A stretch of DNA of 60,000 nt, taken from Malacoraja senta. Its lineage: Eukaryota. Below are positions 9,085-60,000 of the stretch, piece after piece. The notes under the pieces were generated by a model. It saw only the letters and a program-made list of their open reading frames with translations. It did no database searches and was not told where the DNA came from. A program made the translations under genes and the position numbers. The number at the start of each line of letters is the position of its first letter. Position 1 is the first letter of the stretch. The DNA is taken from NCBI GenBank assembly GCA_038087875.1, contig CM075988.1:20152001-20212000 (forward strand), in the 5' to 3' direction.

Positions 9085-9695
9085 AAAGAGTGCAGAGATT
9101 TATAAGGATGTTGCCAGGACTTGACAGCCTGAGCTAGAAGGAGAGGTTGGGCATGTTCAGACTTCTTTGGAGCGCAGGAGACTGAGGGGTGATCTTGTAA
9201 AAGTGTATAAAATCATGAGAACAGATAGGATGAATATATTTGTTTTAGAAGGAACTGCAGATGCTGGAAAATCGAAGGTAGACAAAAGTCTGAAGTCTGA
9301 AGAAGGGTTTCGGGCCGAAACGTTGCCTATTTCCTTCGCTCCATAGATGCTGCCTCACCCGCTGAGTTTCTCCAGCATTTTTGTGTATCTAGGATGAATA
9401 TATAGTGTTTTTTACTCGGGGTAGGGAATCAAAAGGTAAGGTGATAGGGACAAGATTTGATGAGAACCTGAAGGGCAATTTCTTTTACTATGGATGGTGG
9501 GTATATAGAACAAGCTATCAGAGGGGTCGTTGAGGCAGCATTTAAAATACATTTGGACAAGTACATGGATAGAAAAGGTTTAGAGGAGTACGTCCCAAGT
9601 GCAAGCAAAAGGGACTAGCTTAAATGGGGCATCGTAGTCGGCATAGACAAGTTAAACCAACGTGCCTGTTTTCATGCTGTACGATTTTTATGACT
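9085..9695 (+). mobile_element. CR1 LINE 3' fragment interrupted by a 150-bp Penelope-derived insertion
   Basis: RVQRFIRMLPGL / LRGDL motifs and a CR1 3' UTR. Confidence 0.8.
9240..9389 (+). mobile_element. Penelope-derived mini-insertion with a hammerhead-like core
   Basis: 14-bp TSD taggatgaatatat (9226-9239, 9390-9403); CTGAAGA at 9297, GAAAC at 9317. Confidence 0.8.
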
Positions 9696-20633: not shown

Positions 20634-20730
20634 AGATAGACACAAAATGCTGGAGTAACTCAGCGGGACAGGCAGTATCTCTGGAGAGAAGGAATGGGTG
20701 ACGTTTCGGGTCGAGACTCTTCTTCAGACC
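20634..20730 (-). mobile_element. Penelope-derived short repeat with a hammerhead-like core
   Basis: Reverse complement reads ggtCTGAAGAagagtctcgacccGAAACGTCaccc (20700-20727). Confidence 0.8.
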
Positions 20731-20749
20731 AGTGTGCTCTTGTTCCACC

Positions 20750-21085: not shown

Positions 21086-21450
21086 CGGCTGTTCAGTCGG
21101 CGGCCGACGCTCGGCTTGAGGGGCCGTGTTTTCCCATCGTCGGGCGGCAAGGCCGCAGCTGCGGACCGCGGCGAAGGCGCGATGCCGGGTCTGGGGCCGG
21201 ACCAGGCCCGGCGGCAGAGCCAGGCGCCGCTGGTGCTGCAGAGAAAGTGGCTGGGCCTCGGGCTGCTACTGCTGGCCTGCCTCTTGCTCCAACTGCTGCT
21301 CAACATCTGGTTGCTATGCGCCTGGGTGCTGCTGCTGTTGCTAGGGGGCTGGCTAGGGTCGCAGCTGGTGCTCAGTCCCTCCAGCCTGGTGCATCTGGAG
21401 AGGTTCCTCAGCCTGGAGCCCTGGCCCATCCAGCCCAACTCCCGGCAGCG
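20750..21450. promoter_or_regulatory. CpG island over the SNX19 5' end
   Basis: Very GC- and CpG-rich segment in an AT-rich background, overlapping the start codon. Confidence 0.6.
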
Positions 21451-22852
21451 CCTAGCCCTGGAGGTGGAGGGCACCATCAGCAAGATCATCAGGGACTTTG
21501 TCAGCTGCTGGTACCAGACAGTGAGTCAGGAGCCAGAGTTTGTAGAGGAGGTGCAGGCTGCCATGCGTGCCATGGCACTGGAACTGCAGAAGAGGATGGA
21601 GGGGGTGGACAGGAAAGCGCTGGCACAGAATGTGCTCCTGCTCTCTGGCTGCCACCTGGAGGTGTACATGAGGGCAAAGAGGGCAACCTGTGAGAGGACC
21701 GCCCGCCAAGATGCTCACTCCACGTGGAAGACGTATTGCAAACTGTGCCAGCCTCACATTGCCTTGCAGAGCCCGGCAACTGAAGCGAATTACGCACGTG
21801 GCATTGTTGATTTGCTGCTGCATGTACTGGTGCCCTTTCCCAACCTAGAAACACGGACTGGGAGGTTTGTCGTGAGGGAGCTGATCATGTGCAATGTGCT
21901 TCTGCCCCTTATAAGAAAAATGTCAGACCCCGATTGGATAAATGGTATAATAATAGAAATATTCACAAAGTCCAGCAAAAAGACTGTTGATGTAATGGAG
22001 GAGCCTCTGCCTTTGGAGGTACCAACTTCCCTACTCTTGAAACCCCAAAAAGAGACAATTGATGAAAGATTACCATCTCCGAAAAGTACCGATTCTCTCA
22101 GTAATGATGTTGTTGATAGTTTGGAACCTAATATGGAGGAGACTAGTGCATCCGAAGATGGGATTGTGATTAAATCAAATGATAAAGTTGATAAATCTTC
22201 GGAAAATATAAGCAGTCGCTCTGATTACCAAAGACCGGATAAATTAAACCTTTTCTATTCATGTGAGGAATTTGAACCGGAATCTCCCCTTTCTGCTATG
22301 AGAAAAGATTCCACTGAATCTTTAATATTGTTGATGACTGATGAACTGGCTGTGGACAGGTTGTCTCCAACAGAATTAATTAATGCTTCAGATGCAGCAG
22401 AAGATGCAAGCAGTGACGAACTAGTCATTGGAGAATCCATACTTTTGGATGCAGATGCTATCTTGCACACGTTTGACCAAAATCCAATTTCTCCGGGGCT
22501 TGAGCGTGTTGTCAATGACAGTGATGTGAAAGAAGAGACTTTAGCTAAATTAGAGAACTCCACATCCGCTCTGGCTCATGAGACTATCCGAATTCTTTCC
22601 AGACGAAATTCATTTCAGGAAAAGGAACCTGTTCCAGCAGATGGTTCAACCTGCAACTCCTTAGAGGTTGTGTCTACAGTGCCTACACAGACATCATCTC
22701 CTACATCAGTGAGTCTGCCCAGTTACAGCTTTGAACCAATTTGCAGTCCGGATACACCCGTGGTAATTCACAATCTACGGATCAGTGGAACAATCACAGC
22801 AAAAGAACACAGAGGAGGGGGATTTCATCCATACACATTATATACTATCAAG
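21182..22852 (+). CDS. SNX19: Sorting nexin-19 exon 1 (two TM helices, PXA domain, start of PX)
   Basis: MPGLGPDQ..., hydrophobic TM segment, IIRDFVSCWYQTVSQEPEF and LETRTGRFVVRELIMCNVLLPLI (PXA), HPYTLYTIK; no RGS domain; donor AAG/GCAAGT. Confidence 0.93.
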
Positions 22853-23449
22853 GCAAGTCCCTTTGGATGATAAAATGAATCACGACCAAATACTGTGTTG
22901 TTATTCTGTCAACAAATTCTGTTTGAGAGTTTGTAATTCCCGCGATACGTCTCTGAGCTTAATTGGTCACAAAGTAGTTCTGTTACTATACTGTAATTTC
23001 CACTTATTCATAACTGCACGCAATGCTCCAAATGTGGCCTAGCCAAAGTTCTATAAAGTCACATCATGACCTTCACTGTTATACTCAATGCTCTGACATA
23101 TGCAAACAAGCATACCATATGCTTTCTTAACCATGCTTATCTACTTGACTTGCCAGTTATGTTCCCCTTGCAGCCATGTTTCTGCAAGGGCCAACTCATT
23201 ATAGTCCCAAGCACTGATCCAGGCTCTAAGTTGATCTGCTTTCTCCACAATGCTCCTGTTGAAATAAACACACTTCAGCCCATCAGCATCACCATTTTTC
23301 TTCACCTCCCTACCTGTGCTTCTTTGAACTAACTGGTCCAAACCACTACCTTCCCATCACCACTTCTAATTTCTGACGTACAACTTTGGTTCCCAGCCCC
23401 TGCCTCCCAGAAAATTAGGAAATCCAAATTAGTTTGGTAAAAAGCCACA

Positions 23450-26340: not shown

Positions 26341-26418
26341 GTAGGAACAAACTAATGCATGTATCATCCTCGATGAGGGAGGTGTTTCCATCTGGTCACC
26401 CATCAAGGCTTATACCCA

Positions 26419-26515
26419 GAAGATAGACACATAATGCTGCAGTAACTCAGTGGGACAGGTAGCATCTCTCTATTGAAGGACTGGGTGAAGTTTCAGATCG
26501 AGACCCTTCTTCTGA
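26419..26515 (-). mobile_element. Penelope-derived 97-bp mini-insertion
   Basis: 10-bp TSD cttataccca (26409-26418, 26516-26525); degenerate core. Confidence 0.8.
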
Positions 26516-26674
26516 CTTATACCCACTCTCCCACAGGAATTTCTCATGCAGACTGTGTTTAATGGTGTCGTAGAAATTGCATAAAGCATCTAAATTTAGA
26601 TCACAGAATACTTTAGAATGGCCATTTTAATCAGCTCGTTAACAATTTGGCTGAGTAAACTGTGGCTTACAAAA

Positions 26675-29139: not shown

Positions 29140-29658
29140 GTGGGTATCTGTAAAACACATTAAAGATCCTTAATCTGGAGACTGAAGAAGGGTCCATGTT
29201 CTCCAGAGATGCTGCCTGACCCGCTGCTTTACTCCAGCACTTTGTGTCGTCTTTTGTAAACCAGCGTCTGCTTTTCCTTGTTTCTACAAAGACTTTTTAA
29301 ATATTTGCAGATTTTTGCATCTCTCAAGTGATTGTTCGTTTTTCTCATTGTTTCTATAAAAACAAACAGGAAAATGTTCTGCTTTATTGCAAGAGGCAAA
29401 AGCACATTTTCATTTGTCACTTAACAACCTCGATGCACCAAACAAAATATTTTATCTGATTGTAATCTCTCATGAAATATTTCAAGCCATAAAGGTTTCT
29501 GTGTTAATCATGTGTGCATATTCCAGACTTTATTTTGTGCTGTAAAATATTTTTAAAAAATTAATTACAAATCATGCATATTACTTCCTGGTTAGTTGTG
29601 AGTTTTTAGCAGTGACATTCGCTTCATGTCCAATCAACAGACATCGTAAAGAGAAATG

Positions 29659-29894
29659 TGTATGATGGAACTGCAGATGCTGGATTATACTGAAGATAGA
29701 CACAAAATGCTGGAGTAACTCAGCGGGAGAGGCAGCATCTCTGCAAAGAAGGAATGGATGACGTTTTGGCTCGAGAACAGTCTAAAGAAAGGTCTCGACC
29801 TGAAGGGTCTCAATCCAAAATGTCAGCCATTCCTTCTATCCAGAGATGTTGCCTATCCCGTTGAGTTACTCCAGCATTTTGTGTCTATCTTCGG
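29659..29894. mobile_element. Fold-back pair of Penelope-derived repeats
   Basis: gaagatagacacaaaatgctggagtaactca ... tgagttactccagcattttgtgtctatcttc inverted arms; imperfect TSD aaagagaaatg / aaagggaaatg. Confidence 0.75.
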
Positions 29895-30207: not shown

Positions 30208-30937
30208 GTAAGTCTCTGGTTTTCTTTTTTATTTCTGCAATAAAACTGAATATTGAAAGTTATTCATTATTTCCATGTACAGTCCATGAAAGATCTGACC
30301 AAAAATAATATTATCAGTCGTTTCTGGTATTTATTTCATTTCCAGATAATGTTGCTCACTTGGATTCCGAATATACTTAAAACACATGATGTATATTTTT
30401 GTTTTGATTACCCTCTGGCTTGAACGCTGGCCAGGCAGTTTAGTGAAAAATATACCAGACTTATTATAGCTAGAGAGACTTGTGTTGTCCATTGTGTAGT
30501 CGGAACTAACCCTGAAAGGTTACCATCTTCTATTGAACCAGATGCCAAAACATTGGGAGTTTTGAATTCAGATAGCAAATACAATCAAACCCAATATTAA
30601 ATCCCCAAAATTGATCAACTCAGCTTTCCTTAAAAAAAGGAGGCAACATTTTTAGTTGAGGAAATGTGCATTCTCCTTTCACTCCTCTCCACTGGTAAAA
30701 TGACATTGCCTTGGCCCTGGGAGAAGTGTCTGCTCTGAGGGTATCAATGGTACACTTAGCTTCAGGCTTTGATGAGTTAACGTAAAAGGGACATTTTCAT
30801 CTAATGACATTTGCAGAAAATGAACTATAAATTAAATACCACATTTCCTGAAAGTATTTTATGTCTGGAGTTACAGAGGGTGAAAAATGCAACTCTTAAT
30901 AAACAGGCACGTTACCAAAGGGCAGTAAATATAAACT

Positions 30938-31031
30938 TTTGCAAAACACAAAGTGCTGGAGGAACTCAGGAGGTCAGGCAATATCTGTGGAGGGAATGGA
31001 CAGACGATGTTTCGGGTCAGGACTCCTCGTG
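30938..31031 (-). mobile_element. Penelope-derived 94-bp mini-insertion
   Basis: 11-bp TSD aaatataaact (30927-30937, 31032-31042). Confidence 0.75.
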
Positions 31032-34000
31032 AAATATAAACTGTTCTTCAAGACTATCACTTACACACAGGGTGTTATACTGAGTTCGCTTTTTGAGTTT
31101 GTTACAAATGCCAAAGTAGGTGTTATGCTCCATATTTCAATGAGATGATGATAATTAAAAAATTGGCTGCGTATTTATGTTAATTTATAAGTGTAATAGT
31201 ATCGTACAAATTTATGGCACAATATGAGACTCTTCAGCTCAATGTGCCATGTCAGCCAAAGTGGTGTGATTTAGATTCCTTCCACTCCCAGCTCTCACTC
31301 CATAGCCTTGTAGGATTTTGTGATGTATGAATAGATGTTATACATGCATTATACAGTCAAAATTCAGGCATAAATCCAATGTTCTATAGCATTGTATTTG
31401 CAAAATGCAAAAAGAAAACAATCAGAAAGAACTGTAAGGTTATATTGCTGAGGAAAAATAGTTTGATGCATTTTTTTAGATATTGCAGCACTAGTTTGAA
31501 TAATCCAATGTTTCCTGAATGGATCATTGGGCCGTCTGGGTTGCAGGTGGCAATGACTTTGGATATTTTACTCCATCTGTATTCCAACAATTTCTCTTGC
31601 TTTCATTTCTTGTGGTATTAAGTATCTCGTTTTCACGAGCTGGCTCAAGTGGCAAAATCTGTTTGGTTTGCATTCAGAACAAATAAAGTTTTATTTGGTA
31701 CTGGAAAAGCCTTCCAGTGTTTTTATTGCCTGTACCGGTGATGCTATTAATACAGCGTATTTATCTACAACATGCCTAATGTATATTCCATATGCCACTC
31801 GTATTGAACCTTTGGTGATATAAATTACTGGTTGGGCTTGTATGTTTTGAGTGATTTTTTATCTGAAACGCATGTTATACTTTATGTGCCTTATAACGTG
31901 CTCATACATTGGGTAATGAAGGTGGGTACTCTATTCAATTACTTACGCAATGCCAGCAGCAGTGCATTGCAAGGTGTCTTCAATTGTGCTGCAGCTAAGG
32001 TTAAGTTCAGGTCTTTCAAAAATTTGTTTGTCTTTACAGCACACAATGGAAACAGGTTTTCATGCTGCTGTGCTTAATAACAATGAGTTATAGATTTTTA
32101 ACTCTAATTCATTGTTACTTGAAACATGATCAATTAGACAGCGCAACAAAGAGACTACAAAACCAGTTAGTCAGATTGATCTGTTTGCGGCATTTCATAG
32201 TAAAACGGCAGGCAGCCTGGTTGATAGGGAACATTACAAAGAACTATTTGTTGCTTGTTCAGTAGTAAATATTTAGCATATTTAGTGTGTTTATATAATT
32301 TAGTTCACAATGAAAAAGATTTATTAACCAACACGTGGGTAAATTTTGTGACCCCTCTGTTCCTTATTGTTCATTATGTTCGTAAAAATGTTAGAAAGAG
32401 GAATGGATCTTTTGGCTTAAAATTTAAATATTAAGATTGGCTTGAGATGGGAAAAAAGGTGCACAGTGAAAGAGTTGGGCCCAGTAAAAAAGGGTTGCCT
32501 GGCAAATTTACAACTCAAAATTGACATCTAACATGATACAAATAATACATGAATGGCAAAACATTCAGTTGATTGGATTGGAAATTATTTTTGCCCAGAG
32601 CTCGTCTCCAGCCATTAGGAAACATTTGAGAAATTTAGTAGGGCTGAGCACCATGCGATTTTTGGATGATATTGTTGCCCCAATTGATCAAAACATACCT
32701 TTAATATAGTACTCCATCTCTCTACCTCTCTAATTTTTGCCTGTAGCGTATTACGGCATTCAGCCAAATATGTTATGCCAGCTGTAATGGAGCTCAAAAA
32801 CTATGTTCTGAACAGAACTCAGAGCAAAACTTTAGCCATGAGTCTGGTAGCTCCTTCAGGCGCAGTGTAAAATTTTGCTTGGTTACTGCACTGATTAAAC
32901 ACCTAGGATATTATGTCAAAGCATTGCATAGTTGTTGTCCTCTCTGGTCCCAATTTAAAAGTGATGGTTTCAAGATAATGTGGGTAATTAACAAAATTGT
33001 TTCATGCTTATTTCAGCATCCAAGCACTGTCTGAAAGGCATTGAGCATTGCCATATGTAATAAGGCATTTGGAATACAAGTGTAATAAATCATTTTAACA
33101 GTCAATAAAGATCAAAAGGCAACTATAAACTGGAGGAGAGGAATCCAGCTTGTTGGCGTCAACACTGACGTCACAATGGCCGCTGGATACAGTCAGGGAA
33201 AGTTCATCCATTTGAAAATCTGTCTGTGAACCTTCAGCCTTTGTAGACCATTCTGATTTATTTCATTGTTCCCATCTCAGTTAGCAGGGAGAAAGGCAAT
33301 GAACTCAACCCCGTCCTTGTCAACTGAGCTTTAAAAAAAAAAGTAAATGAGCTGCAAGTGTACATGTATTTTTCATGGATAAACTCAGACTATTAAATTA
33401 AATTGCTGCTGCATTCCAATGCTTTTATGCTGAGAATTGAATGTGGCTGCAAATTAATTGGAATTGTATAGGTTAATTCAGAATAACACCTTTATCGCTG
33501 AATTGGAAGGCACGGAAATCAAGTTCCATTTCAGAACTTGTACATAGAATTTGGGATAATACAGTATTTTAGGATGTGTGGCCTGGTGTGCCATCTTTTG
33601 AATACAATGTTAAAACTAGGTTTGATATGTATGCTTAGATTATAACTGAATCCTGGAGTCAAAGTGATTGTCGTTGACTCCAAGGTAGCATTTGACTGAT
33701 TATGGCATTGAGAGGCCTTTGGCGGGTGCCTGGAACGTGCTGCCAGGGATAGTGGTGGAGGTAGAGACAAAAGTAGCATATAAGATGCTTTTAGACAGGC
33801 ACATGGATATGCAGGGAAATAAGGAAATGGAACATGTGGAGGCAGATGAACTTCACACACGATAGTGGCACTTAAGAGGCTTTTAGATAGGCACGTGGCA
33901 ATGCAAGGTATTAAAATCTGTAATTTAGCAAGGAGAGTACCAAATATTTTTCAGTGGAAACAAAATTCTTTCTGGAAGGGAATATTCAGCTGTTAAGTAG

Positions 34001-34483: not shown

Positions 34484-35934
34484 GTAAGCATTTGACCATA
34501 ACTACTCGCTAGTATTGTTTTGCATTGGCTCAACAATAGCAGCTGTTAAATAGGACCTTTAATGTAGCACGGCATTCAAAGGTCATTTGCACAAGCATTG
34601 TGACACATAAATAAATGGAGACGCAAAGAACTGCAGATGCTGAAATCTTGCGCAAAACACAATGTGCTGAAGCAGTTTAGCGGGGGTCAGGTAGCATCTG
34701 TGAAGGGAATGGCCATGCGGCGTTTTGGGTTGGGACCGTTCTGCAGGTCTGGAGGGGTTCCGACCCGAAATGTCGACAGGCCCATTCTCTCTACATATGC
34801 TGCCTGCCCCACTGATTTCGCCTAGCCATTTGTGTTATACATAAGTGTAAGTCAAAAGTCAATAACTTTGTGTTAGTCAAAAGTTAGACAAAGAGATGGG
34901 CTTTAAGAAGTATAGTGACTGTGATAAGAGAAGTGTAGAGGTGGAGAGTTTTACGTAGGGAATTCGATCTTATGGCCTGTCTAGTCTGGTTTCCTACACT
35001 GTTCCAACAAATATCAACATGAGTTCAAAGATAATTCCTCATCTTCGATTTATGAATGTTGTTGCCTTGGGATGCACTGTTGAATGCAACATTTTCAAAA
35101 AGCCATTCTTTCCTGTTGGTATCAGAACTGAAAAGTTCTGACATCGTTTACCACCTGAAACAACTCAATATTTTTTCACTTTACAGATATTACCTGATCT
35201 GCTTGGTATTTTCATGAATCTCTTTAGTTTACATTTTCAGCAGCTACTCTGTTCTAATAGTTCCAACATGCAATTTCTTGAGTCTTGTGTGTGCGAACTA
35301 GCTCTGATATTGTCCTTCCATATTGTTTTGAACTGTAGCAAAGCCTTTAATGACATTTTATTTTAGTTAACACAATTTGTACTGGCCTGATACATTTTGG
35401 GGACACGAAAGATTAGTAAAGTCAAGTCACATTTATTTATATAGCACATGTAAAAAACAACTCTCGTTGACCAAAGTGCTTTACATTTGTTATAAGAATA
35501 GTAGAAATGATGACACTGATTTATACTGTGACCAGTGATTCTGGGCGTAGCATTCTTGCCTCTGGGTTAGGCTCTGGATTAAGCATCAACATTTAGACTA
35601 ACATTCTGGTGATGTGCTAAGGAACTGGTCTTGTGTGGAAGTGAGGAATGTGCTGGTTGAGGTGTGAACTTTCAAATGAAACTTGGTTTAAAGTTGCAGT
35701 AGATGAATGTTGAACTTCTGGCAACATGTCAAAGAAGAGCAAGTGCTTTTACTGTTTTATTAACCTCCCTATTGTAATGAATTTATATGCCAATTGCCAT
35801 GTTGCTATTTGTCGGTAGCCATGGCACTTCTAGATTTGGATATTAGATTAGATATTAGAAGGGGCTGTGACCTAGATTTAAATAGAGAGTAGACTTCAAA
35901 ACTATTTCATTGGCTTTGCAAATTGAAAAAAAAA

Positions 35935-36336
35935 CCTTTAACTACCCCTCCCCATCCCATTCCCAATCTGACCTTTCTGTCCTGGGTCACCTCCATTGTC
36001 AGAGTGAGACCCAGTGCAAATTGGAGGAACAACACCTCATATTTTGCTTGGGTAGCTTACACCCCAGCGGTATGAACATTGACTTCCCTAACTTCGAGTA
36101 GCCCTTTCTTTCCCTCTCTCTCCATCCCCTCCCCCTTCCCAGTTCTCCCACCAGTCTTACTGTCTCTGACTGCATTCTATCTCTGTCCCGCCCACTCCCC
36201 TGACATCTGAAGATGGGTCTCGAACCGAAACGTCACCCATTCCTTCACTCCAGAGATGCTGCCTGCCCGCTGAGTTACTCCAACATTTTGTGTATATCTT
36301 CGATTTAAACCAGCATCTGCAGTTCTTTCCTGCACA
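35935..36336 (+). mobile_element. Penelope-like element 3' end (GIY-YIG C-terminus and terminal repeat with hammerhead-like core)
   Basis: SHSQSDLSVLG...LEEQHLIFCLGSLHPSGMNIDF; CTGAAGA at 36207 to GAAACGTC ending 36234. Confidence 0.85.
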
Positions 36337-36806
36337 TAATAAACACCTTTGTAAGTTTTTTTGTTTGTGCTTTACAGAATCTCCCAAATACACAAATCTC
36401 TATTAGGTGGAAGTATAACACTATTCTTACCAAACTAGGCATTCAACATAATGAACAACACAAACCATGTCCTCAAATAGTTCCTCCTATTTTGTCCAAA
36501 TGTTATTTATTACTCAGGAAGTTTAATAAATACATATTTTTTCACACATAGAAAAAGATTAAATATTTCTCATTGAATTTTTACAATTTTGGATTATTTT
36601 AACACATCTTTGTCTCTCCCTCAAAAAATGTAAATTAGATTCCATTTATCCTTAGAATGTTATTCCCTGCAACAGCATTCAGTAAAAGGAGCTTGCTTGA
36701 CAAAATATTTTTGAAATTTATTCCCATTTTCATTTTTCGGTGATTTATTTCTTGGGATTATGAACCCCCTAGAGGGGTCCTTTTAAAATTTATCAGAATG
36801 AAAGTA

Positions 36807-40224: not shown

Positions 40225-42190
40225 GTAGAAATTTACGAGTCGTCCTTAAATACAGGAGAGATGCCGGAAGACTGGAGGGTGGCAAATGTTGTACCTCTTC
40301 CCAAGAAGAGCTGCAGGAAAACTGGGAACTGTCGGCTGGTGAACTTAACATCTGTAGTTGGTAAGTTACTGGAGAGTATTCTGAGGGATAGGAATACAGG
40401 CATTTGGATGGGCAACATCTGATTAGGGATAGTCAGCATGGTTTTGTACGTGACCAAAAAGGTTGATGAAGGCAGAGCTGTAGATGTTGTGTAAATGGAC
40501 TTCAGTAAGGTGTTCGACAAGGTTCCGCTGCTCTGGAAAGTTAGATCGCATGGGATCCAAGGAGAGATAGCTGAATGGATAGCAAATTGGCTCCATGGAA
40601 GGAAGCTGAGGGTAATGGTGGAAGGTTGCTTCTCAGACTGCATGCCTATGACTAGTGGTGTGCCTCAGGGTTCGGTGCTGGGCCCGTTACTGTTTGTCAT
40701 CTACATCAATGATTTGGATGAGAACATAAAGGGCAAGATTAGCAAGTTTGCTGATGATACAAAAGTTAGTGGTTTTTGCAGATAGTGAAGATGGTTGTGA
40801 ACGATTGTAGCAGGATGTGTATCGATTGGCCAGGTGGGCGGAGGAATGGTTGATGGAATTTAATACAGAGAAGTGTGAGGTGTTGCATTTTGGGAATCGA
40901 ACAAGGGCAGGACCTACACAGTGAATGTAGGCCTCTGGGTAGTGTTGTAGAGCAGAGGGATCTAGAGGTACAGGCGCATGGTTCCTTGAAGGTCAAGTCG
41001 CAGGTAGATAAGGTGGTCAAAAAAGCTTTTGGCACTTTGGCCTTCATCAGTCAGAGTATTGAGCATAGAAGTTGGGAGGTCATTTTGCAGTTGTATAAGA
41101 CGTTGGTGAGACCTCATTTAGAATATTGTATCTAGACAAAAATGCTGGAGAAACTCAGCGGGTGAGGCAGCATCTATGGAGCGAAGGAAATAGGCGACGT
41201 TTTGGGTCGAGACCCTTCTTCAGACTGATGTGAGGGTGGGGGGCGGGAAGAAGAAAGGAAGAGGCAGAGACAGTGGGCTGAGGGACAGCTGGGAAGGGGA
41301 GGAGAAAGCAGGGACTATCTGAAATTGGAGAAGTCAATGTTCATACCGCTGGGGTGTAAACTGTCCAAGCGAAATATGAGGTGCTGCTCCTCCACTTTAC
41401 GGTGGGCCTCACTCTGGCCATGGAGGAGGCCCAGGACAGAAAGATCGGATTCAGAATGGGAGGGGGAGTTGAAGTGCTGAGCCACCGTGAGATCAGGTTG
41501 GTCATTGCGAACCGAGCGGAGGTGTTGGGCGAAGCGATCGCCAAGCCTACGCTTGGTCTCACCGATGTAGAGCAGCTGACACCTAGAGCAGCGGATGCAA
41601 TAGATGAGGTTGGAGGAGGTGCAGGTGAACCTCTGCCGCACCTGGAAAGACTGCCTGGGTCCTTGAATGGAGTCAAGGTGGGAGGTAAAGCGACACAAGG
41701 GTTCAGACAAAAATTACGAGGATGTTGCCAGGACGAGAGGGTGTGAGCGATAGGGAGAGGTTTAGGCTGGGTCTCTATTCCATGGAGCGCAGGAGGATAA
41801 GGGGTGATCCTATGGAGGTGTATAAGATCATGGGAGGAATAGATCGGGTAGATGCACAGAGTCTTTTGCCCAGAGCAGGGGAATTGAGAACCAGAGGACA
41901 TAAGTTCAACGTGACAGGAAAAAGATTTAATAGGAATCCGAGGGGTAACGTTTTTACACAAAGGGTGGTGGGTGTATGGAACAAGCTGCTAGAGGAGGTA
42001 GTTGAGGCTGGGACTATCACATTGTTTAAGAAACTGTTAAACAGGTACATACGTAGATAGGACAGGTTTGGAGGGATATGGACCAAGCGTAGACAAGTGG
42101 GACTAGTGCAGCTTGGACATTGTTGGCTAGTGTGGGCGAGTTGGGCCGAAGGGCCTGTTTCCACACTGTATCACTATGAATCTATGACTC
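40225..42190 (+). mobile_element. Degenerate CR1 LINE (RT region and 3' UTR) interrupted by a Penelope-like element
   Basis: DFSKVFDKVP, SGVPQGSVLGPLLF, KFADDTK, LVRPHLEYC; stops and frameshifts. Confidence 0.92.
41131..41695 (-). mobile_element. Penelope-like element 3' end with open GIY-YIG endonuclease domain
   Basis: ORF 41315-41710: NLIYCIRCSRCQLLYIGETKRRLGDRFAQH...HFN...GMN; followed by the terminal repeat. Confidence 0.92.
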
Positions 42191-47630: not shown

Positions 47631-49174
47631 CTCACTCCCCCTGTGCTCCTTTCCCACTCCCACCAGTCCATCAGGGTTTCTCCCCTTTGTACTCTTCCCT
47701 CCCTCATTACCTAAATTCATGACCACCCGCACCTGGTTCTCTCTGCCATATCATCCATATACCTATCTACTTAGGCTTCCTTTTCTTTCGATCACCTTTT
47801 TTATCTCCTTCCCCACCAGCTTCCATCTGCACATCTTCCTTCCCTTTTCTGGTTCTACCTATCACCTACCAGCCTCTGTCTCAAAATTCCCCTCCTGCCC
47901 TCCTCCACAAGCTAAGAGTACTCCATCACATTCCTGGCCTGCTTGTAGATGATAGCGAGGCTTTGGGGTGTCAGGAGATGAGTCACTCACCTCAGGATAT
48001 GCAGCCTCTGACATCTCTTGCAGCCAGTCTTTATGTGCCTGCTGTGGTTGAGTTTCTGGTCAATGGTGATTTCCAAGATGTTGATAATGGAAGTCTTTCT
48101 CCTGGTAATGCTATTGAATGTCACTCTCCCTTGTTGGAGATGATCTCTGCCCGACACTTTGATGGCACTTTAATGTGTCACTTATCCCACATGTTTAATC
48201 ATTGGTCTGCATGAGTTTTCTGCATGGAGGCACGGTCTTTCAATTTTTGAGAAGTTGTAAGTGGAACTGAATTGGTGAATTCATCAATGAACATCTCCAC
48301 TTCCCATCTTTTGTTGAAATGAAGATCATCACACAAGAAACCACAGATGTTGGAATCCTGAGCAAAACACAAAGTACTGGAGGAACCCAGTGGGTCAGGC
48401 AGCATCAGTGGAGAGAATGGACAGATGCCGTTTCGGGTCAGAACCTTTTTTTGATCCGTTGAAGGGTCCTGACTTGAAATATCTGCTCATTTCCTCCCAG
48501 AGGGTCAGATTCTGCCTGATCCTTTGAGTTCCTCCAGCACTTTGCTCATGCTTACCAATAAATGTCATTGAACTCCTGCAGTGATGAGGATGAATAACTT
48601 TCACCAACCACTGCCATTTTCCTTTCTGTGAGGTAACAACTTTAGAGTGTGTTTACTGCCATGCCAATTTTACCAGGGTTCCTTAGCTATGGTTGATCAA
48701 ATGTTGCCTTATTGTTAAAGACATTTACTCTCATTTCACTTCTAGAATTCAACTCTTTGGTCCATATTAGTATAAAAACTGATTAGATCCGAGCCATGAG
48801 CTGGGTCTTTAGCAAAATCTTCCCGATAGGATTTATCCTGAACTTCCATATAGTTAAAGGTAATACTGTGTAAAACCAAGGAACATTCTGAGAATCTTTG
48901 TAATCTTTAAATAATATATGGTCACTCTTTTATGCATGTTTTTTAATGAGGAAATGTTGTGAGTAGAAGGTAAATGTCTAAACACTTCCTGTCATTATGT
49001 TAAGATGGGAAGAGTATGTTCCATTGAGCTTGGATTTGGGTATCGTGCTGTTTAATGCACAGCAATTTAAATATTTGGAACTACAATTTGCCTACAGGTT
49101 TTAAGAAGCTGATTAGTTCAGAATTTAGCTAGATTTGTTTACTATGTTAAAATAATGAACCCCAGAAATTGATT

Positions 49175-49465: not shown

Positions 49466-50274
49466 CACTTGAATTTAGATGTGTACTGCTGTTAGAGTAT
49501 CAGATACGAAATAGGAGTAAGTAGTCCTTCTCACAACATGGTTCTGTGAAGCCAGTAATACAACTCAGCTTATGTTAAGTCTGGAAAGAATGTTTGAAAT
49601 CACCTCTGGTCTTGATCTGTGGCTCAGAGTTATCAATTTGACCACAGCATTTGTTAATTATTGCTTGTTATATTTAGCCGCATGAGGTTACATGTGGTGT
49701 TGATTAATGCAAGTGTTACAGGCAATGTTTTCCAGTATTATAACTTGCTGTATAATTCTTGGAATTGCCTGGTCCATTTAAACTCAAATTTAAAGGGAAT
49801 GTGGGGAGCAAAAGTTTGAATGTATTGTCAATCATAACAGAACAAATACTTTCTGCAAAAAAGTTGCATATTACATAAAAATATAAATATTGTCATTAAT
49901 AATGCAAGATAAATGGGATTTGTGTAGATAGGTATCATGGTCAGGATGGATGGGTTGCGCCAGAGGGCAAGGTTGTGTACTGTTTACAGCTCTTGTAACC
50001 ATTACTGATTCATTGACTGCACATTTCATTTTACACCGAAGCTTCATGATCCAGCTTCTTGAACCATTTTCTCACACACCCACAAGTAAACTAATGAAAA
50101 CATTTAGGAGAGATTTTCTTCTGTTCAGTCAATTCTTATACTGCAGTAACCGTTTTATTCGTGGGACTTTTCTCTCCTGTGCGATTGGTTTATCATTTCA
50201 GCTCCCTCATTGTTCACAAACCGGTCATGCCATGGATGGAATTGCCATGTATATTTTTAAATACATTGTCATTT

Positions 50275-50900
50275 TGTTAAGGAAGGAACTGCAGATGCTG
50301 GTTTACCACGATGATAGATACAAAATGCTGGAGTAACTCAGTGGGTCAGGCAGCATCTCTGGAGAAAAGGAATAGGTGACGTTTTGGGTCGAAATTCTTC
50401 TTCAGACTGAAAGACGGGAGAGGGAAACTAGAGGTATGAAAGGTACCGAACAAATCAGACACGGCACCAATGACTAAGGAAAGGTGGACCCCACAATGGT
50501 CCATAGTTGGCTGTGGAAGAAGTGATAACTAAGGGATACAAATAGTGAAAGTAGCAGTACGTCTAGGGTGGGGGAGGGACGGTGAGAGAGGGAATGCAAT
50601 AATTATGTGAATTTGGAGAAATCAATATTCATACCGCTGGGATGTAAGCTACCCTAGTGAAATATGAGGTGCTGTTCCTCCGATTTGTGTGTGGCCTCAC
50701 TCTGAGAGTGGAGGAGCCCCAGGACAGAAAGATCAGTATGGGAATGGGAAGGGGAGTTAAAATGTTTGGCAACCGGGAGATCGCATACGCCAAGGCAGAC
50801 TGAGCATAGGTGTTCAGTGAAACGATTGCCCAGTCTGCGCTAAGTCTCTCCAATATATGGGAGTCCACACCGAAAACAACGGATACAGTAGATGAGGTTG
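50275..50900 (-). mobile_element. Penelope-like element 3' end
   Basis: Homologous to 41131-41620; terminal repeat with degenerate core at about 50378-50405. Confidence 0.85.
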
Positions 50901-50946: not shown

Positions 50947-53503
50947 CAGTTGGGGATGGCATCAAACAGGAAATTAGAAATGCGTGCAACAAAGGCAAAA
51001 CAGTTATAATGGGTGACTTCAATCTACATATAGATTGGGTGAATCAAATTGGCAGGGGTGCTGAGGAAGAGGATTTCTTGGAATGTATGCGGGATAGTTA
51101 TCTAAACCAACATGTAGAGGAACCAACGAGGGAGCAGGCTATTCTAGACTGGGTATTGAGTAATGAGGAAGGGTTAGTTAGCAGTCTTGTTGTGCGTGCC
51201 CCCTTGGGCAAGAGTGACCATAATATGGTTGAGTTCTTCATTAGGATGGAGAGTGACATTGTTAATTCAGAAACCACGGTTCTGAACTTAAAGAAAGGTA
51301 ACTTTGAGGGTATGAGACGTGAATTGGCCAAGATTGACTGGCAATTAGTTCTAAAAGGGTTGACGGTGGATATGCAATGGAAGGCATTTAAAGACTGCAT
51401 GGATGAACTACAAAAATTGTTCATCCCAGTTTGGCAAAAGAATAAATCAGGGAAGGTAGTGCATCCGTGGATAACAAGGGAGATCAGGGATAGTATCAAA
51501 GCAAAAGATGATGCGTACAAATTAGCCAGAAAAAGCAGCATACCAGAGGACTGGGAGAAATTCAGAGACCAGCAGAGGAGGACAAGGGGCTTAATTAGGA
51601 AAGGGAAAATAGATTATGAAAGAAAACTGGCAGGGAACATAAAAACTGACTGCAAAAGTTTTTATAGATATGTGAAGAGAAAGAGATTAGTTTAAACAAA
51701 TGTAGGTCCCTTGCAGTCAGAAACAGGTGAATTGATCATGGGGAACAAGGATATGGCGGACCAATTGAATAACTACTTTGGTTCCGTCTTCACTAAGGAA
51801 GACATAAATAATCTGCCGGAAATAGCAGGGGGCCGCGGGTCAAAGGAGATGGAGGAACTGAGTGAAATTCAGGTTAGTCGGGAAGTGGTGTTGGGTAAAT
51901 TGAATGGATTAAAGGCCGATAAATCACCAGGGCCAGATAGGCTGCATCCCAGAGTACTTAAGGAAGTAGCTCCAGAAATAGTGGATGCATTAGTGATAAT
52001 TTTTCAAAACTCTTTAGATTCTGGAGTAGTTCCTGAGGATTGGAGGGTAGCAAACGTAACCCCACTTTTTAAGAAGGGAGGGAGAGAGAAAACGGGGAAT
52101 TACAGACCAATTAGTCTAACATCGGTAGTGGGGAAACTGCTAGAGTCAGTTATTAAAGATGGGATAGCAGCACATTTGGAAAGTAGTGAAATCATTGGAC
52201 AAAGTCAGCATGGATTTACGAAAGGTAAATCGTGTCTGACGAATCTTATAGAATTTTTTGAGGATGTAACTAGTAGAGTGGATAGGGGAGAACCAGTGGA
52301 TGTGTTGTATCTGGACTTTCAGAAGGCTTTCGACAAGGTACCACATAAGAGATTAGTATACAAACTTAAAGCACACGGTATTGGGGGTTCAGTATTGATG
52401 TGGATAGAGAACTGGCTGGCAAACAGGAAGCAAAGAGTAGGAGTAAACGGGTCCTTTTAACAATGGCAGGCAGTGACTAGTGGGGTACCGCAAGGCTCAG
52501 TGCTGGGACCCCAGCTATTTACAATTTATATTAATGAACTGGATGAGGGAATTGAAGGCAACATCTCCAAGTTTGCGGATGACACTAAGCTGGGGGGCAG
52601 TATTAGCTGTGAGGAGGATGCTAGGAGACTGCAAGGTGACTTGGATAGGCTGGGTGAGTGGGCAAATGTTTGGCAAATGCAGTATAATGTGGATAAATGT
52701 GTGGTTATCCACTTTGGTGGCAAAAACAGGAAAGCAGACTATTATCTAAATGGTGGCCGACTAGGAAATGGGGAGATGCAGCGAGACCTGGGTGTCATGG
52801 TACACCAGTCATTGAAAGTAGGCATGCAGGTGCAGCAGGCAGTGAAGAAAGCGAATGGTATGTTAGCTTTCATAGCAAAAGGATTTGAGTATAGGAGCAG
52901 GGAGGTTCTACTACAGTTGTACAGGGTCTTGGTGAGACCACACCTGGAGTATTGCGTACAGTTTTGGTCTCCAAGTCTGAGGAAGGACATTATAGCCATA
53001 GAGGGAGTGCAGAGAAGGTTCACCAGACTGATTCCTGGGATGTCAGGACTTTCATATGAAGAAAGACTGGATAGACTTGGCTTATACTCGCTAGAATTTA
53101 GGAGATTGAGAGGGGATCTTATAGAAACGTACACAATTCTTATGGGGTTGGACAGGCTAGATGCAGGAAGATTGTTCCCGATTTTGGGGAAGTCCAGGAC
53201 AAGGGGGTCACAGCTTAAGGATAAGGGGGAAATCCTTTAAGACCGAGATGAGGAAAAACGTTTTCACACAGAGAGTGGTGAATCTCTGGAACTCTCTGCC
53301 ACAGAGGGTAGTTGACGCCAGTTCATTGGCTATATTTAAGAGGGAGTTAGATGTGGCCCTTGTGGCTAAAGGGATCAGGGGGTATGGAGAGAAGGCAGGT
53401 ACGGGATACTGAGTTGGATGATCAGCCATGATCATATTGAATGGCGGTGCAGGCTCGAAGGGCCGAATGGCCTACTCCTGCACCTATTTTTTATGTATCT
53501 ATG
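50947..53503 (+). mobile_element. Young 5'-truncated CR1 LINE (endonuclease C-terminus and RT), disrupted
   Basis: MGDFN, SDH, YRPISLTS, DFQKAFD, QGSVLGP, FADD; stops at 51695 and 52460 and a frameshift near 53203. Confidence 0.97.
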
Positions 53504-53789
53504 TAACACCAATTCATCAGCAAAGATCTCCACAAGGCTCTCCACCTGCAGATATTCCCTGCTCAAAAAATGGTCTACCTGTTTCCTCCTTTAAGACAAG
53601 CTTGTATCTTTATCTGGAAGAACAAACTCACCAATTACAGTATTTAGCAAGGTTAATCCTGCTGGAATCTTAAAGCATTTGGTCAGCTTCTAAGACTGGT
53701 CACTTTGCAGCACTTCTTCAGATCTCCTGGCAGGTCTTCACTGTGTGTCTTTCGACTTCTTTCTTGAACACCATATTTATCTTTGTAGT

Positions 53790-55350: not shown

Positions 55351-55565
55351 GATACGGTTACACAAATATGTCTGTTACGTTTTTGAGAAGGCACAGTTCC
55401 AATATCAATATGTGTCATCTTCACATTTTACTTTTAGACTCAGGATAAGGTGCAAGCTTTACCGGGATTGCCTTCCCTGTCTATCCTCACGATCCTTGAG
55501 ACCTGAAGAATTAAAAAATAGTCACATGCCATTTTGACTTGGAAATGTATCACTGTTCTTTCATT

Positions 55566-55654
55566 GAAGATAGACCGAAAATGCTGGACAGCGGGACAGG
55601 CTTCTCTGGATAGAAGGAATGGGTGATGTTTCGGGTTGAGACCCTTCTTCAGAT
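55566..55654 (-). mobile_element. Penelope-derived 89-bp mini-insertion with a hammerhead-like core
   Basis: 12-bp TSD tgttctttcatt (55554-55565, 55655-55666); reverse complement reads atCTGAAGAagggtctcaacccGAAACATC. Confidence 0.85.
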
Positions 55655-57816
55655 TGTTCTTTCATTATTGTTGAGTCAATCCTGGAGCTTACTTCAACTG
55701 AAGACTACTAGTGTCTCACAGACTGGAATGATTCCAAGAGGTGATTCACCAGCACCTTCTCAAAAGCAGTGGACATTAAATGCTGAGCTTTATGCAATGC
55801 TCACAAGTGAATTAAAAAAAATCATTAACTGTGTGAATTATCAGACATGACAAATAATATTTTCTCAAAATTATGCCTGCCTTTAACAAAATTGAAAAAC
55901 AGTTCTTTAAAACTAATGGGTTTATAAAGTTGATTCAAAATTAAACTGCTTGGATTTAATGCCCTAGTGGATCGAGTTTGTGCTGTTAACTTTGACCTCA
56001 AGCATACCAGACCCATCTGTCTTTGACTGTCTTGTTTTCCATAACACAAACAGTGCTATTATCTGTATCTTAGACAAACCTTGGCTGACTTACTTATAAA
56101 CAGCAAACATTGTGCCAGGTAATGCCTGCCAGGATTACTTCACCTACCCAGTGCAGATGCAGACAGCCTTTCAACCTCCTTAAGGCCTGAGGGATGACTG
56201 GGAAGGCGTCTTTAGTGCTTTGAAATCCATTTGACAGAGTTACAAAGGGTGTCAAATGTAGGTAATAGCAAACAGAAATCCTGTCGACCTGTTGAGTAAA
56301 TACAGTTTTTTTTTAGGTTATGCATGTAGTATCTTGCTTAAGTGATTCTGCTCTGAAAGTCGGGCATAGTGGACCCTCACGGTTATTTTTTCATCTCATA
56401 TTCACTGGCAAGCCTAAATTGTATATGTTATCTGGAATTTAAGCTGCCATCTGTAACTTGCTGTACTATTTCATCAGCGGTCCCAACCCATTTCGATATA
56501 ACGGATTTTCGCTTGTTAAAATACCAGAATGTTACATGATTGTGATAAATGCTAATCTTATGAAATCACTGACAGTAATTTCAACTCTTTTGATCATCTG
56601 CATCCCTTTATTGAATTATGCAGCCATAAAAAGTCTAACAAATGTAATCCAGTCTGAATAGTTGAGTGATAACTAGCTTTCACTGTGAGTCCCAGACAAA
56701 TTGGCTGCTCTTGTTGCAGTTGCAAATGAGTGGAAATTGCTTAACTAATGCTGAAGGTATTTAATTGCTTATACGATTCAACAGTTACATTATTCCAGCA
56801 TTTACATAGATTTCTTAAGGCTTTGGTTTTCACATTGGCGAGACAAACTATCCCCAAGGGCAGGACTACAGGGTGAAATTTGGGCATTAACTACATCATT
56901 GAATATAATTTTTTTTATTCAATTTGCAAGTTATTAAACAAATGGGGATATAGTGCTTACGGCATTGGACATTTTATTGGAACTCAACGTGGTCATTAAT
57001 TATAAAATGCCTGTATTTCTTAGAAAGATTATTGCTTTTGTTACATTGTGAAAGAGATATCTTGCTGAAAGACAAGTCTAGATCCGCAAGTCCCTCATTT
57101 TCAAATGTTAATGCTGTTCTTAATTTGGATACGGACCTGGATTATTTTATTGCAATCATTCAAAATTCCCTTCACAAGAGTCTTGAAATGGGTTGGTGTT
57201 TCAGCAGAATGATAAGGTGCCTTCTGCACACGCCTTTTTTAGTTTCTTTCCTAAGGTTGATATTTAAAATTTGTACGAAATTATGCTCGGGCAGCTATAT
57301 GTATTTGTACTTGTAATTGCTTTAACTGGCACAGTTTTGAAGAATTAGGTGTACAATGTATTTATCAGAAAACTAATCATGTAAAGGTGATTCCATTTTT
57401 TTGTGAATTGTAGTATGAAAGCTCAGTATAATGAGAAATGGCATAATTAGATTAAAGCATTTTCTTGTGTCTTTCCTGATTTACTTTAATTGACCACAAT
57501 CAGAGGCCGGAAGATCAGATTGAGGACAGTGGCATTTTTAAACTGTTCATGAATACAATTTCAGGCTTCATTTCAAATGAGTTATTCTTATATTTTTTGA
57601 AAAATGGTCTGCAGATTCGGGCAGCAAGCACTGTGTGCACTGGAGTTTGTTTAAGTGGAAGGGAATCTGATTGAAACACAAAACTTTGGCAAGGCTAGAT
57701 GCAGGGAGGATGAACTACATGCAGGGAGTATGTTTGCCCTGGCTGAGGGGGCCTAGAAAGAGGAGACGGGATAACAGATTTAGATGCAGAGAAACGTCTT
57801 CAATAGAAGGTGGTCA

Positions 57817-59875
57817 ACATAGAAACATAGAAATTAGGTGCAGGAGTAGGCCATTCGGCCCTTCGAGCCTGCACCGCCATTCAATATGATCATGGCTGAT
57901 CATCCAACTCAGTATCCCGTACCTGCCTTCTTCATACCCTCTGATCCCTTTAGCCACAAGGGCCACATCTAACTCCCTCTTAAATATAGCCAATGAACTG
58001 GCCTCGACTACCCTCCGTGGCAGAGAGTTCCAGAGATTCACCACTCTCTGTGTGAAAAAAGTTCTTCTCATCTCGGTTTTAAAGGATTTCCCCCTTATCC
58101 TTAAGCTGTGACCCCTTGTCCTGGACTTCCCCAACATCGGGAGCAATCTTCCTGCATCTAGCCTGTCCAACCCCTTAAGAATTTTGTAAGTTTCTATAAG
58201 ATCCCCTCTCAATCTCCTAAATTCTAGAGAGTATAAACCAAGTCTATCCAGTTTTTCTTCATAAGACAGTCCTGACATCCCAGGAATCAGTCTGGTGAAC
58301 CTTCTCTGCACTCCCTCTATGGCAATAATGTCCTTCCTCAGATTAGGAGACCAAAACTGTACGCAATACTCCAGGTGTGGTCTCACCAAGACCCTGCACA
58401 ACTGCAGTAGAACCTCCCTGCTCCTATACTCAAATCCTTTTGCTATGAAAGCTAACATACCATTCGCTTTCTTCACTGCCTGCTGCACCTGCATGCCTAC
58501 TTTCAATGACTGGTGTACCATGACACCCAGGTCTCGCTGCATCTCCCCTTTTCCTAGTCGGCCACCATTTAGATAATAGTCTGCTTTCCTGTTTTTGCCA
58601 CCAAAATGGATAACCTCACATTTATCTACATTATACTGCATCTGCCAAACATTTGCCCACTCACCCAGCCTATCCAAGTCACCTTGCAGTCTCCTAGCAT
58701 CCTCCTCACAGCTAACACTGCCCCCCAGCTTAGTGTCATCCGCAAACTTGGAGATATTGCCTTCAATTCCTTCATCCAGATCATTAATATATATTGTAAA
58801 TAGCTGGGGTCCCAGCACTGAGCCTTGCGGTACCCCACTAGTCACTGCCTGCCATTGTGAAAAGGACCCATTTACTCCTACTCTTTGCTTCCTGTTTGCC
58901 AGCCAGTTCTCTATCCACATCAATACTGAACCCCCAATGCCATGTACTTTAAGTTTGTATACTAATCTCTTATGTGGGACCTTGTCGAAAGCCTTCTGGA
59001 AGTCCAGATACACCACATCCACTGGTTCTCCCATATCCACGCTACTAGTTACATCCTCGAAAAATTCTATAAGATTCGTCAGACATGATTTACCTTTCGT
59101 AAATCCATGCTGACTTTGTCCAATGATTTCACCACTTTCCAAATGTGCTGCTATCCCATCTTTAATAACTGACTCTAGCAGTTTCCCCACTACCGATGTT
59201 AGACTAACTGGTCTGTAATTCCCCGTTTTCTCTCTCCTTCCCTTCTTGAAAAGTGGGGTTACGTTTGCTACCCGCCAATCCTCAGGAACTACTCCAGAAT
59301 CTAAAGAGTTTTGAAAGATTATTACTAATGCATCCACTATTTCTGGAGCTACTTCCTTAAGTACTCTGGGATGCAGCCTATCTGGCCCTGGGGATTTATC
59401 GGCCTTTAATCCATTCAATTTACCCAACACCACTTCCCGACTAACCTGGATTTCACTCAATTCCTCCAACTCCTTTGACCCGCGGTCCCCTGCTATTTCC
59501 GGCAGATTATTTATGTCTTCCTTAGTGAAGACGGAACCAAAGTAGTTATTCAATTGGTCCGCCATATCCTTGTTCCCCATGATCAACTCACCTGTTTCTG
59601 ACTGCAAGGGACCTACATTTGTTTTAACTAATCTCTTTCTTTTCACATATCTATAAAAACTTTTGCAGTCAGTTTTTATGTTCCCTGCCAGTTTTCTTTC
59701 ATAATCTATTTTTCCTTTCCTAATTAAGCCCTTTGTCCTCCTCTGCTGGTCTCTGAATTTCTCCCAGTCTGCTGCTTTTTCTGGCTAATTTGTACGCATC
59801 ATCCTTCGCTTTGATACCATCCCTGATTTCCCTTGTTATCCACGGATGCACTACCTTCCCTGATTTATTCTTTTG
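57817..59875 (-). mobile_element. Young 5'-truncated CR1 LINE with an uninterrupted RT reading frame
   Basis: 610-aa ORF 57814-59646 with all RT motifs; (CATAGAAA)n tail; nearly identical to 51430-53500. Confidence 0.97.
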
Positions 59876-60000
59876 TCAACCTGCAGAATGGTCTCACAGA
59901 GAATGGTAAGGGTCAAATTGCTGAATATATTCAGATATAAAAGCCATCAAGTATTTTGGGAGGAGAGCAAGTAGTGTTGAGGTAGAGGGTAGTGTTGTGT

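What the first reader, a model, noticed from the sequence alone, without database searches (positions are those of the whole stretch)
55554..55666. 89-97 bp insertions, each with its own TSD, bounded at the hammerhead core: a candidate micro-retroposon class
Seen: 55566-55654 (12-bp TSD tgttctttcatt), 26419-26515 (10-bp TSD cttataccca) and 30938-31031 (11-bp TSD aaatataaact). All three have similar length and similar ends. In ribozyme-sense orientation two begin 1-2 nt before the CUGA position and the third begins within the core, and they run about 90 nt. 20634-20730 has the same span without a clear TSD. Inference: these are independent integration events of a discrete ~90-nt non-coding unit, mobilised in trans by Penelope RT/GIY-YIG and retrozyme-like, rather than random decay products. 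The recurring boundary suggests a defined RNA end or a template-switch site.
Basis: partly seen in the sequence, partly recalled or inferred. Interest (0 to 1): 0.7.

Follow-up and report, generated by a model that had tools for sequence, protein, structure and literature searches.

The report
Penelope stubs sharing one left edge
These ~90-135-base inserts are real, separately inserted end-pieces of an abundant Penelope-like jumping gene rather than a new mini-element family, and about a third of its non-inverted copies stop at the front edge of its hammerhead-ribozyme motif, likely because the RNA being copied begins there.

Summary
The three TSDs are exact and the coordinates are right. The inserts are the 3' end (minimal hammerhead, stem-loop, optional ~35-nt tail) of a GIY-YIG Penelope-like element (PLE): 657 copies in 1.6 Mb of sampled genome.

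The shared 5' edge is real. 117 of 236 at-risk copies start at -8..+1 of CUGA, 6.6% per nt against 0.4-1.2% per nt in flanking bins, with no peak at the predicted cut site. TSDs flank 29 of 138 such copies against 0.4% in controls, and empty paralogous sites exist.

It is not a discrete ~90-nt family. Lengths are bimodal (~100/~135), 3' ends equal those of ORF-bearing copies, and stubs form no clade (60 changes against 59.8 shuffled).

Best mechanism (inferred): PLE RT starts internally and runs off an RNA 5' end at about -3/-2, probably a start site. RNA data did not test this. Orthologous empty sites are untested. The scan noted the same pattern in other genomes.

The parts
55566..55654 (-). 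PLE 3' stub, short class, starts at -2; 9-nt internal gap
   Evidence: (82-84% to UTR-bearing copies, 9 gap positions)
55554..55565 (.). 12-bp TSD, left copy
55655..55666 (.). 12-bp TSD, right copy
26419..26515 (-). PLE 3' stub, short class, starts at -1/-2; core CUGA mutated; 10-bp TSD at 26409-26418 and 26516-26525
30938..31031 (-). PLE 3' stub of a more diverged subfamily, starts inside the core; 11-bp TSD at 30927-30937 and 31032-31042
20634..20730 (-). PLE 3' stub without TSD, 96-97% identical to UTR-bearing copies
41134..41713 (-). 5'-truncated parent-type PLE: GIY-YIG frame (41315-41713), C/T-rich UTR, hammerhead unit (41134-41225) with the same short 3' end
   Evidence: PF01541, E 3.3e-05
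50271..50891 (-). Second parent-type truncated PLE (other UTR subfamily) with hammerhead unit and tail
   Evidence: (D8, D7)
35941..36345 (+). Third parent-type truncated PLE with UTR, hammerhead unit and tail
   Evidence: (I3, I4)
9240..9390 (.). Head-to-head insertion (inverted tail piece plus stub starting at -2) with 13-bp TSD at 9227-9239 and 9391-9403
29657..29893 (.). Head-to-head pair of stubs, one with tail and one without
   Evidence: (I12)

Best explanation
[quoted passage not shown] Shown: same sequence and same two 3' ends as ORF-bearing copies, TSDs mostly 11-14 bp, empty paralogous sites, no private lineage, 5' starts concentrated at 0..-3 before CUGA (mode -2, the first base of the 2-bp helix I), and no peak at the predicted cleavage site. 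Inferred: (1) the endonuclease nicks AT-rich DNA and RT starts inside the RNA at one of two sites about 100 or 135 nt downstream of the hammerhead, as shown in vitro for the anole PLE (PMC11167929); (2) in a tandem-derived transcript this region also lies near the RNA 5' end, so initiation there gives a run-off product like a retroviral strong-stop cDNA; (3) the RNA end is most likely a transcription start at the A of the conserved TCAGT (-3); (4) end-joining trims 0-3 nt or adds short fillers. The ribozyme is copied uncut. Odds: stubs of the parent about 0.9, run-off at an RNA end about 0.65, that end being a start site about 0.4.
For: 3' ends are bimodal and equal in UTR-bearing copies (49 short, 41 long of 93) and bounded copies (82 short, 57 long of 143). 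Start hazard is 6.62% per nt at -8..+1 against 0.66-0.96% at -80..-9 and 0.43-1.17% at +10..+39; the bin with the cut site (+24..+29) has 0.80%. Local TSDs: 29 of 138 against 0.4%. Empty paralogues: 7 of 29. Nearest-neighbour label match 0.50 against 0.51 shuffled; tree changes 60 against 59.8 +/- 3.4. Deconvolution of whole-genome motif counts puts starts at 0: 11-14%, -1: 10-15%, -2: 47-55%, -3: 17-22%, -4: 2-8%, a sharp upstream edge. A YYANWYY initiator-like match (consensus recalled) sits at -5..+1 in 78 of 100 UTR-bearing copies whose UTRs otherwise differ. 83 of 96 classifiable head-to-head pairs have one tailed and one untailed arm, the known PLE signature. Precedent: internal initiation, two start sites and an uncut template (PMC11167929); TATA-less internal promoter (PMC2377424).
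Against: No RNA 5' end was seen: no pile-up of read starts in two single-cell runs, which are poorly suited to the question. A start at A(-3) would put the mode at -3, but the mode is -2, and the sample fit gives -3 only 6% (interval 0-16%). A cap-derived G is weak: at -4, G 4,733 against A 4,828 (ratio 0.98; background 0.74-0.81), and 9 of 17 in the sample. The same bases fit a YAG splice acceptor equally well (77 of 100). In D. virilis the start lies 46 nt upstream of a 75-nt intron that ends at helix I, not at the hammerhead. 109 of 138 bounded copies lack a local TSD (about 7 more have a distal one). No full-length element or 5' pLTR-body junction was recovered.
Confidence: 0.6

Rival explanations
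1. Same parent-derived stubs, but the edge is an RT stop or template-switch site inside a longer RNA: a splice-factor-bound 3' splice site (pyrimidine tract plus CAG|T), or the TCAG-T-CTGA palindrome that lets cDNA ends pair or fold back.
For: YAG at -4..-2 in 77 of 100 UTR-bearing copies behind a C/T-rich tract. In D. virilis Penelope the intron ends at the 5' end of a 2-bp helix I (PMC4209133). Many head-to-head junctions sit on this palindrome, and palindromes at inverted junctions are described in Adineta PLEs (PMC3846280). T is depleted at -4 (1,888 of 18,644), as at exon ends (recalled).
Against: 100 of 362 copies that keep the hammerhead edge run on into the UTR. No spliced copy was found: 0 genome matches for the ORF-end/hammerhead join against 4,071 for the unspliced ORF end, and 0 of 161 bounded copies abut PLE body sequence. 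No RNA-supported joint among the 15 rows shown (204 not shown). The GT at the ORF end is missing in several subfamilies. The palindrome explains inverted pairs but not single stubs that abut a TSD.
Confidence: 0.2
2. The template is a processed RNA: a 5'-3' exonuclease trims a longer transcript up to the folded or protein-bound ribozyme, leaving an uncapped 5' end at helix I.
For: The modal start (-2) is exactly the first paired base of helix I: G-C in 57 of 79 and U-A/U-G in 73 of 79 UTR-bearing copies. The cap-G signal is weak.
Against: Helix I is only 2 bp, and the unit folds no better than shuffles (z 0.92). Exonucleases usually stop some bases before a structure (recalled). No direct test was run.
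Confidence: 0.12
3. A discrete non-autonomous micro-retroposon or retrozyme family that is transcribed and spreads from its own copies.
For: About 196,000 bounded copies by extrapolation, with defined ends and TSDs. Non-LTR retrozymes are proposed to derive from pLTRs (bioRxiv 10.64898/2026.07.22.740005). A stub copied from its exact start would leave no flank trace.
Against: No stub-only clades. Consensus identical to UTR-bearing copies. Two lengths inherited from the parent. Tandem copies are rare (30 of 657). The 5' end is about 30 nt upstream of the cut site. Only the minimal, helix-III-less core is present.
Confidence: 0.06
4. The boundary is an artefact: conserved core against variable UTRs, or post-insertion deletion.
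For: UTRs differ strongly among subfamilies, the library held 31 UTRs, and most bounded copies lack a TSD.
Against: Flanks at -10..-6 have near-background composition and are not shared. 16 of 38 local-TSD starts lie at -3..+3 against 6 at +10..+58. Clean empty paralogues exist.
Confidence: 0.02

Closest known systems
5'-truncated and solo-pLTR insertions of EN+ Penelope-like elements, Neptune/Nematis type (PMC8557442 passages; PMC3846280 passages)
   Same: RT followed by GIY-YIG, a C-X4-C-X2-C linker, hammerhead near the 3' end, heavy 5' truncation, inverted 5' copies, a 30-40-nt tail on one arm only, TSDs of about 8-16 bp.
   Different: A strong 5' start hotspot at the hammerhead's front edge, quantified here. 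I did not find it stated in the parts of these papers that I read.
Poseidon of Anolis carolinensis, PAc (PMC11167929, parts 1-2 of 4 read)
   Same: Two internal RT start sites bounding the tail, both strands primed, hammerhead cleavage not needed, AT-rich targets.
   Different: Different clade. The text I read maps 3' ends, not a 5' run-off point. Its Fig. S2 was not visible to me and may bear on this.
Minimal type I hammerheads of PLEs; D. virilis Penelope variant (PMC4209133, parts 1-2 of 4 read)
   Same: Core CUGANGA...GAAA, extra base before helix II, G10.1-C11.1, palindromic 15.2-16.2, no helix III, 2-bp helix I as in D. virilis; most motifs occur singly and were attributed to truncated PLEs.
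   Different: Cleavage untested here; no intron evidence here, whereas in D. virilis an intron ends at helix I.
Metazoan non-LTR retrozymes (PMC7229834 passages; bioRxiv 10.64898/2026.07.22.740005, parts 1-3 of 5 read)
   Same: Short, non-coding, type I hammerhead, related to pLTRs, likely moved by PLE proteins.
   Different: Those are tandem units with two or more hammerheads, cut and circularised. These are single or head-to-head, start upstream of the cut site, and have no lineage of their own.

Membership tests
EN+ Penelope-like element fragment | Same unit lies downstream of an ORF with RT and C-terminal GIY-YIG | tested here: met
   PF01541 (above cut-off for the window frame, below it for L252); RT identified by motifs only, no Pfam RT hit
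EN+ Penelope-like element fragment | Optional 30-40-nt 3' tail, usually on one arm of inverted pairs | tested here: met
   bimodal 3' ends; 83 of 96 classifiable pairs long+short, of 120 pairs
EN+ Penelope-like element fragment | Minimal type I hammerhead in the pLTR | tested here: met
   core and helix II pair counts in 79 copies; Rfam gave no hammerhead hit
EN+ Penelope-like element fragment | Full-length copy preceded by a tandem 5' pLTR | tested here: inconclusive
   none recovered in 10 long loci; no shared continuation after the tail in 347 tailed copies
Neptune clade | CX2-5CxxC linker before the endonuclease | tested here: met
   L128 frame; motif as given in PMC8557442; shared with Nematis
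Neptune clade | RT phylogeny | not tested
   no reference PLE proteins were fetched
Non-LTR retrozyme | Head-to-tail tandem units with two or more hammerheads | tested here: not met
   30 of 657 hits have a same-strand neighbour within 60 nt
Non-LTR retrozyme | Unit ends set by self-cleavage | tested here: not met
   0.80% per nt at +24..+29 against 6.62% at -8..+1
Non-LTR retrozyme | Self-cleavage and circular RNA | not testable with these tools
   needs in vitro cleavage and RNase R / divergent RT-PCR
Independent non-autonomous (SINE-like) family | Own lineage with diagnostic changes | tested here: not met
   (110 bounded and 77 UTR-bearing copies)

The most novel reading that the evidence does not exclude
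PLE reverse transcriptase routinely makes a strong-stop-like cDNA by starting at the 5'-proximal copy of its initiation site and running off the mRNA 5' end. About 200,000 stubs in this genome would then map the element's transcription start to the front edge of an uncut hammerhead, and would explain solo pLTRs and the short arms of inverted insertions as one step of the PLE cycle.
Probability: 0.4. Interest if true: 0.6.

Novelty: new variant of a known kind. Interest (0 to 1): 0.4.

Why it matters
How PLEs form pLTRs, inverted arms and tails, and what their hammerhead does, is still open in the papers read. A 5' edge shared by roughly 100,000-200,000 independent insertions gives a nucleotide-level prediction for the template's 5' end and shows the copied RNA is not cut by the ribozyme. 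The existing in vitro PLE assay and a 5'-RACE can test it directly. It also warns annotators not to call these stubs a new SINE or retrozyme family.

Tried and rejected
Rfam scan: no hammerhead family, three unrelated hits below gathering score.

Self-cleaved RNA as template: no start peak at +28.

Spliced template using the ORF-end GT: 0 against 4,071 matches; no PLE body abutting stubs. Captured host exons: distal TSDs in only 9 of 104 (2.1 expected), with no shared sequence.

Branch-point stop at about -8: not the mode. Snap-back origin of inverted pairs: arms have different 3' ends.

Search for a full-length element: the RT search returned mostly an amplified truncated copy; ten long loci reached a proline-rich N-terminal region but no 5' pLTR.

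RNAalifold returned no structure on 35 copies; single-copy folding was no better than shuffles, so the downstream stem-loop is read by eye only.

RNA lay: 39,667 and 42,844 reads laid from 1-3% of two single-cell runs under another organism label; no supported joint among rows shown, no start pile-up; uninformative for 5' ends. Small-share metatranscriptome rows were not used.

Orthologous empty sites in related species remain untested. No empty paralogue was found for the three named inserts among the session's loci.

Full report
Observation. The three inserts and their TSDs are exactly as described, and 20634-20730 has no TSD. Positions below are in ribozyme sense, 0 = C of CUGA. The 89-nt copy is short because of a 9-nt gap. 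A search with the 20634 copy finds 24 whole or partial copies in the window. Rfam has no matching hammerhead family.

Parent element. The same unit follows a GIY-YIG frame at 41315-41713 (PF01541) after a C/T-rich UTR. That frame has 94,984 first-look candidates in the genome. Of 30 such loci, 29 were displayed and most end with the unit, either at the short end or about 35 nt later. Longer copies carry RT motifs and a C-X4-C-X2-C linker, which points to the Neptune/Nematis type by the description in PMC8557442 (passages read); no tree was made. No full-length copy or 5' pLTR was recovered.

Census. I fetched 160 evenly spaced 10-kb stretches from 21 large contigs and left the window out. A profile of the unit gave 657 hits and 0 in reversed sequence, about 800,000 genome-wide by extrapolation. 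Of 362 hits that keep the hammerhead edge and enough flank, 100 continue into a parental UTR, 161 are bounded by unrelated flank, 99 are arms of head-to-head pairs and 2 are tandem.

The 5' edge is real. For 381 non-inverted copies with an intact 3' end (236 inverted arms, 7 edge or tandem hits and 33 with short 3' ends dropped), 117 of 236 at risk start at -8..+1. That is 6.62% per nt, against 0.66-0.96% at -80..-9 and 0.43-1.17% at +10..+39. The bins at +2..+9 are raised (1.9-2.8%), probably partly from alignment trimming. The bin holding the predicted cut site has 0.80%. Local TSDs, mostly 11-14 bp, flank 29 of 138 eligible bounded copies against 0.4% with swapped flanks; UTR-bearing copies give 3 of 86 and internally starting copies 9 of 123. 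A few of the 29 are doubtful (8-bp or mismatched repeats, one compound locus). About half have 4-16 nt of filler, some visibly copied from the flank or the element. Seven of the 29 sit in other repeats whose empty copies carry the TSD once, with 66, 41, 23, 10, 7, 1 and 1 sites at gap 0. Only 3 of 12,880 pairs share an upstream flank, two of them local duplications.

Not a separate family. Bounded copies are 82 short and 57 tailed of 143; UTR-bearing copies are 49 and 41 of 93. Consensus lines are identical, nearest-neighbour labels match at 0.50 against 0.51 shuffled, and the tree needs 60 label changes against 59.8 +/- 3.4 (187 copies, 95 columns, so power for small young clades is limited). 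Same-strand neighbours are rare (30 of 657). Retrozymes are defined by tandem, self-cut units (PMC7229834, passages; bioRxiv 10.64898/2026.07.22.740005, parts 1-3 of 5, supplements not seen), which is not met.

The 3' edge is already explained. In the anole PLE, RT starts at two internal sites that bound the tail, both DNA strands are primed, and hammerhead cleavage is dispensable (PMC11167929, parts 1-2 of 4; a search of its supplements found none of my terms, and Fig. S2 was not seen). Here 83 of 96 classifiable head-to-head pairs (of 120) have one tailed and one untailed arm (p about 1e-13 against 0.5).

Where the 5' edge lies. A mixture fit on 128 bounded copies gives 0: 14%, -1: 24%, -2: 27%, -3: 6%, -4: 0%, -5 or beyond: 29%. 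Whole-genome motif counts, which mix bounded and inverted copies, deconvolve to 11-14, 10-15, 47-55, 17-22 and 2-8% for 0 to -4. The -2 share is probably inflated: 65 of the first 100 rows have G at -3 (counted by hand; about 34 expected), which may be junction microhomology with an inverted arm or an added G. Both estimates put the mode at -2 and the upstream limit at about -3. Position -2 is the first base of the 2-bp helix I.

Mechanism. A sharp upstream limit, far from the cut site and passed by many longer copies, fits run-off from an RNA 5' end (inference). The conserved TCAGT fits an initiator consensus (recalled) in 78 of 100 UTR-bearing copies, and PLEs have TATA-less internal promoters (PMC2377424, passages; an Inr-like motif in an Adineta pLTR, PMC3846280, passages). 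Against this, the mode is -2 rather than -3 and a cap G is weak. The same bases fit a splice acceptor (77 of 100), and the D. virilis intron ends at helix I (PMC4209133, parts 1-2 of 4). However, no spliced copy was found in DNA or among the RNA joints shown. The palindrome TCAG-T-CTGA accounts for many inverted junctions but less well for single stubs. The RNA lay showed no start pile-up but cannot map 5' ends.

Novelty. Truncated and solo pLTR copies and single minimal hammerheads are known (PMC4209133, PMC3846280, PMC8557442, PMC8969392 passages). I found no statement of a 5' hotspot at the hammerhead edge in the text read, from searches; subscription papers and Repbase are not covered. After my tests, one search showed that the scan had reached the same reading in other genomes. 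Those are unchecked notes and are not counted as evidence.

Verdict. Observation confirmed; new class not supported; 5' hotspot real, cause inferred. New variant of a known kind, interest 0.4.

Noticed in passing
window 20702-22870 (+): 722-aa stop-to-stop frame with a PXA domain (PF02194), probably a large sorting-nexin exon (recalled). The 20634-20730 stub and a 55-bp GC-rich tandem array (20860-21069) lie at its upstream end.
   Followed up: partly
window 51427-53504 and 57817-59883: Two LINE RT copies (CR1-like, recalled) in inverted orientation, 94-97% complementary, one with a 656-aa open frame.
   Followed up: no
L128-L130, 1836-1990: An amplified truncated PLE copy on many small contigs whose homology ends about 1-4 nt after the predicted hammerhead cut site; probably one event multiplied inside a larger repeat.
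   Followed up: no
G000:C1:3875283-4060894: About 20 motif matches spaced about 2.45 kb apart, a tandem array carrying the unit.
   Followed up: no
unit positions about +76 and +105: The tail holds a second CAGCAT able to pair with the same upstream ATGCTG; each copy lies 15-20 nt before one of the two 3' ends, a possible basis for two RT start sites (read by eye).
   Followed up: no
L115:1600-2100: RNA reads are about 7:1 biased to one strand in both single-cell runs; which strand is the RNA could not be told.
   Followed up: no
window 34615-34835 and 48331-48544: Further head-to-head pairs of older subfamilies.
   Followed up: no
window 11123-11848 (+): 241-aa frame with no Pfam match, possibly a host exon.
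   Followed up: partly
window 12625-12865 and 13236-13489: 47-bp and 48-bp tandem arrays of about five copies each.
   Followed up: no
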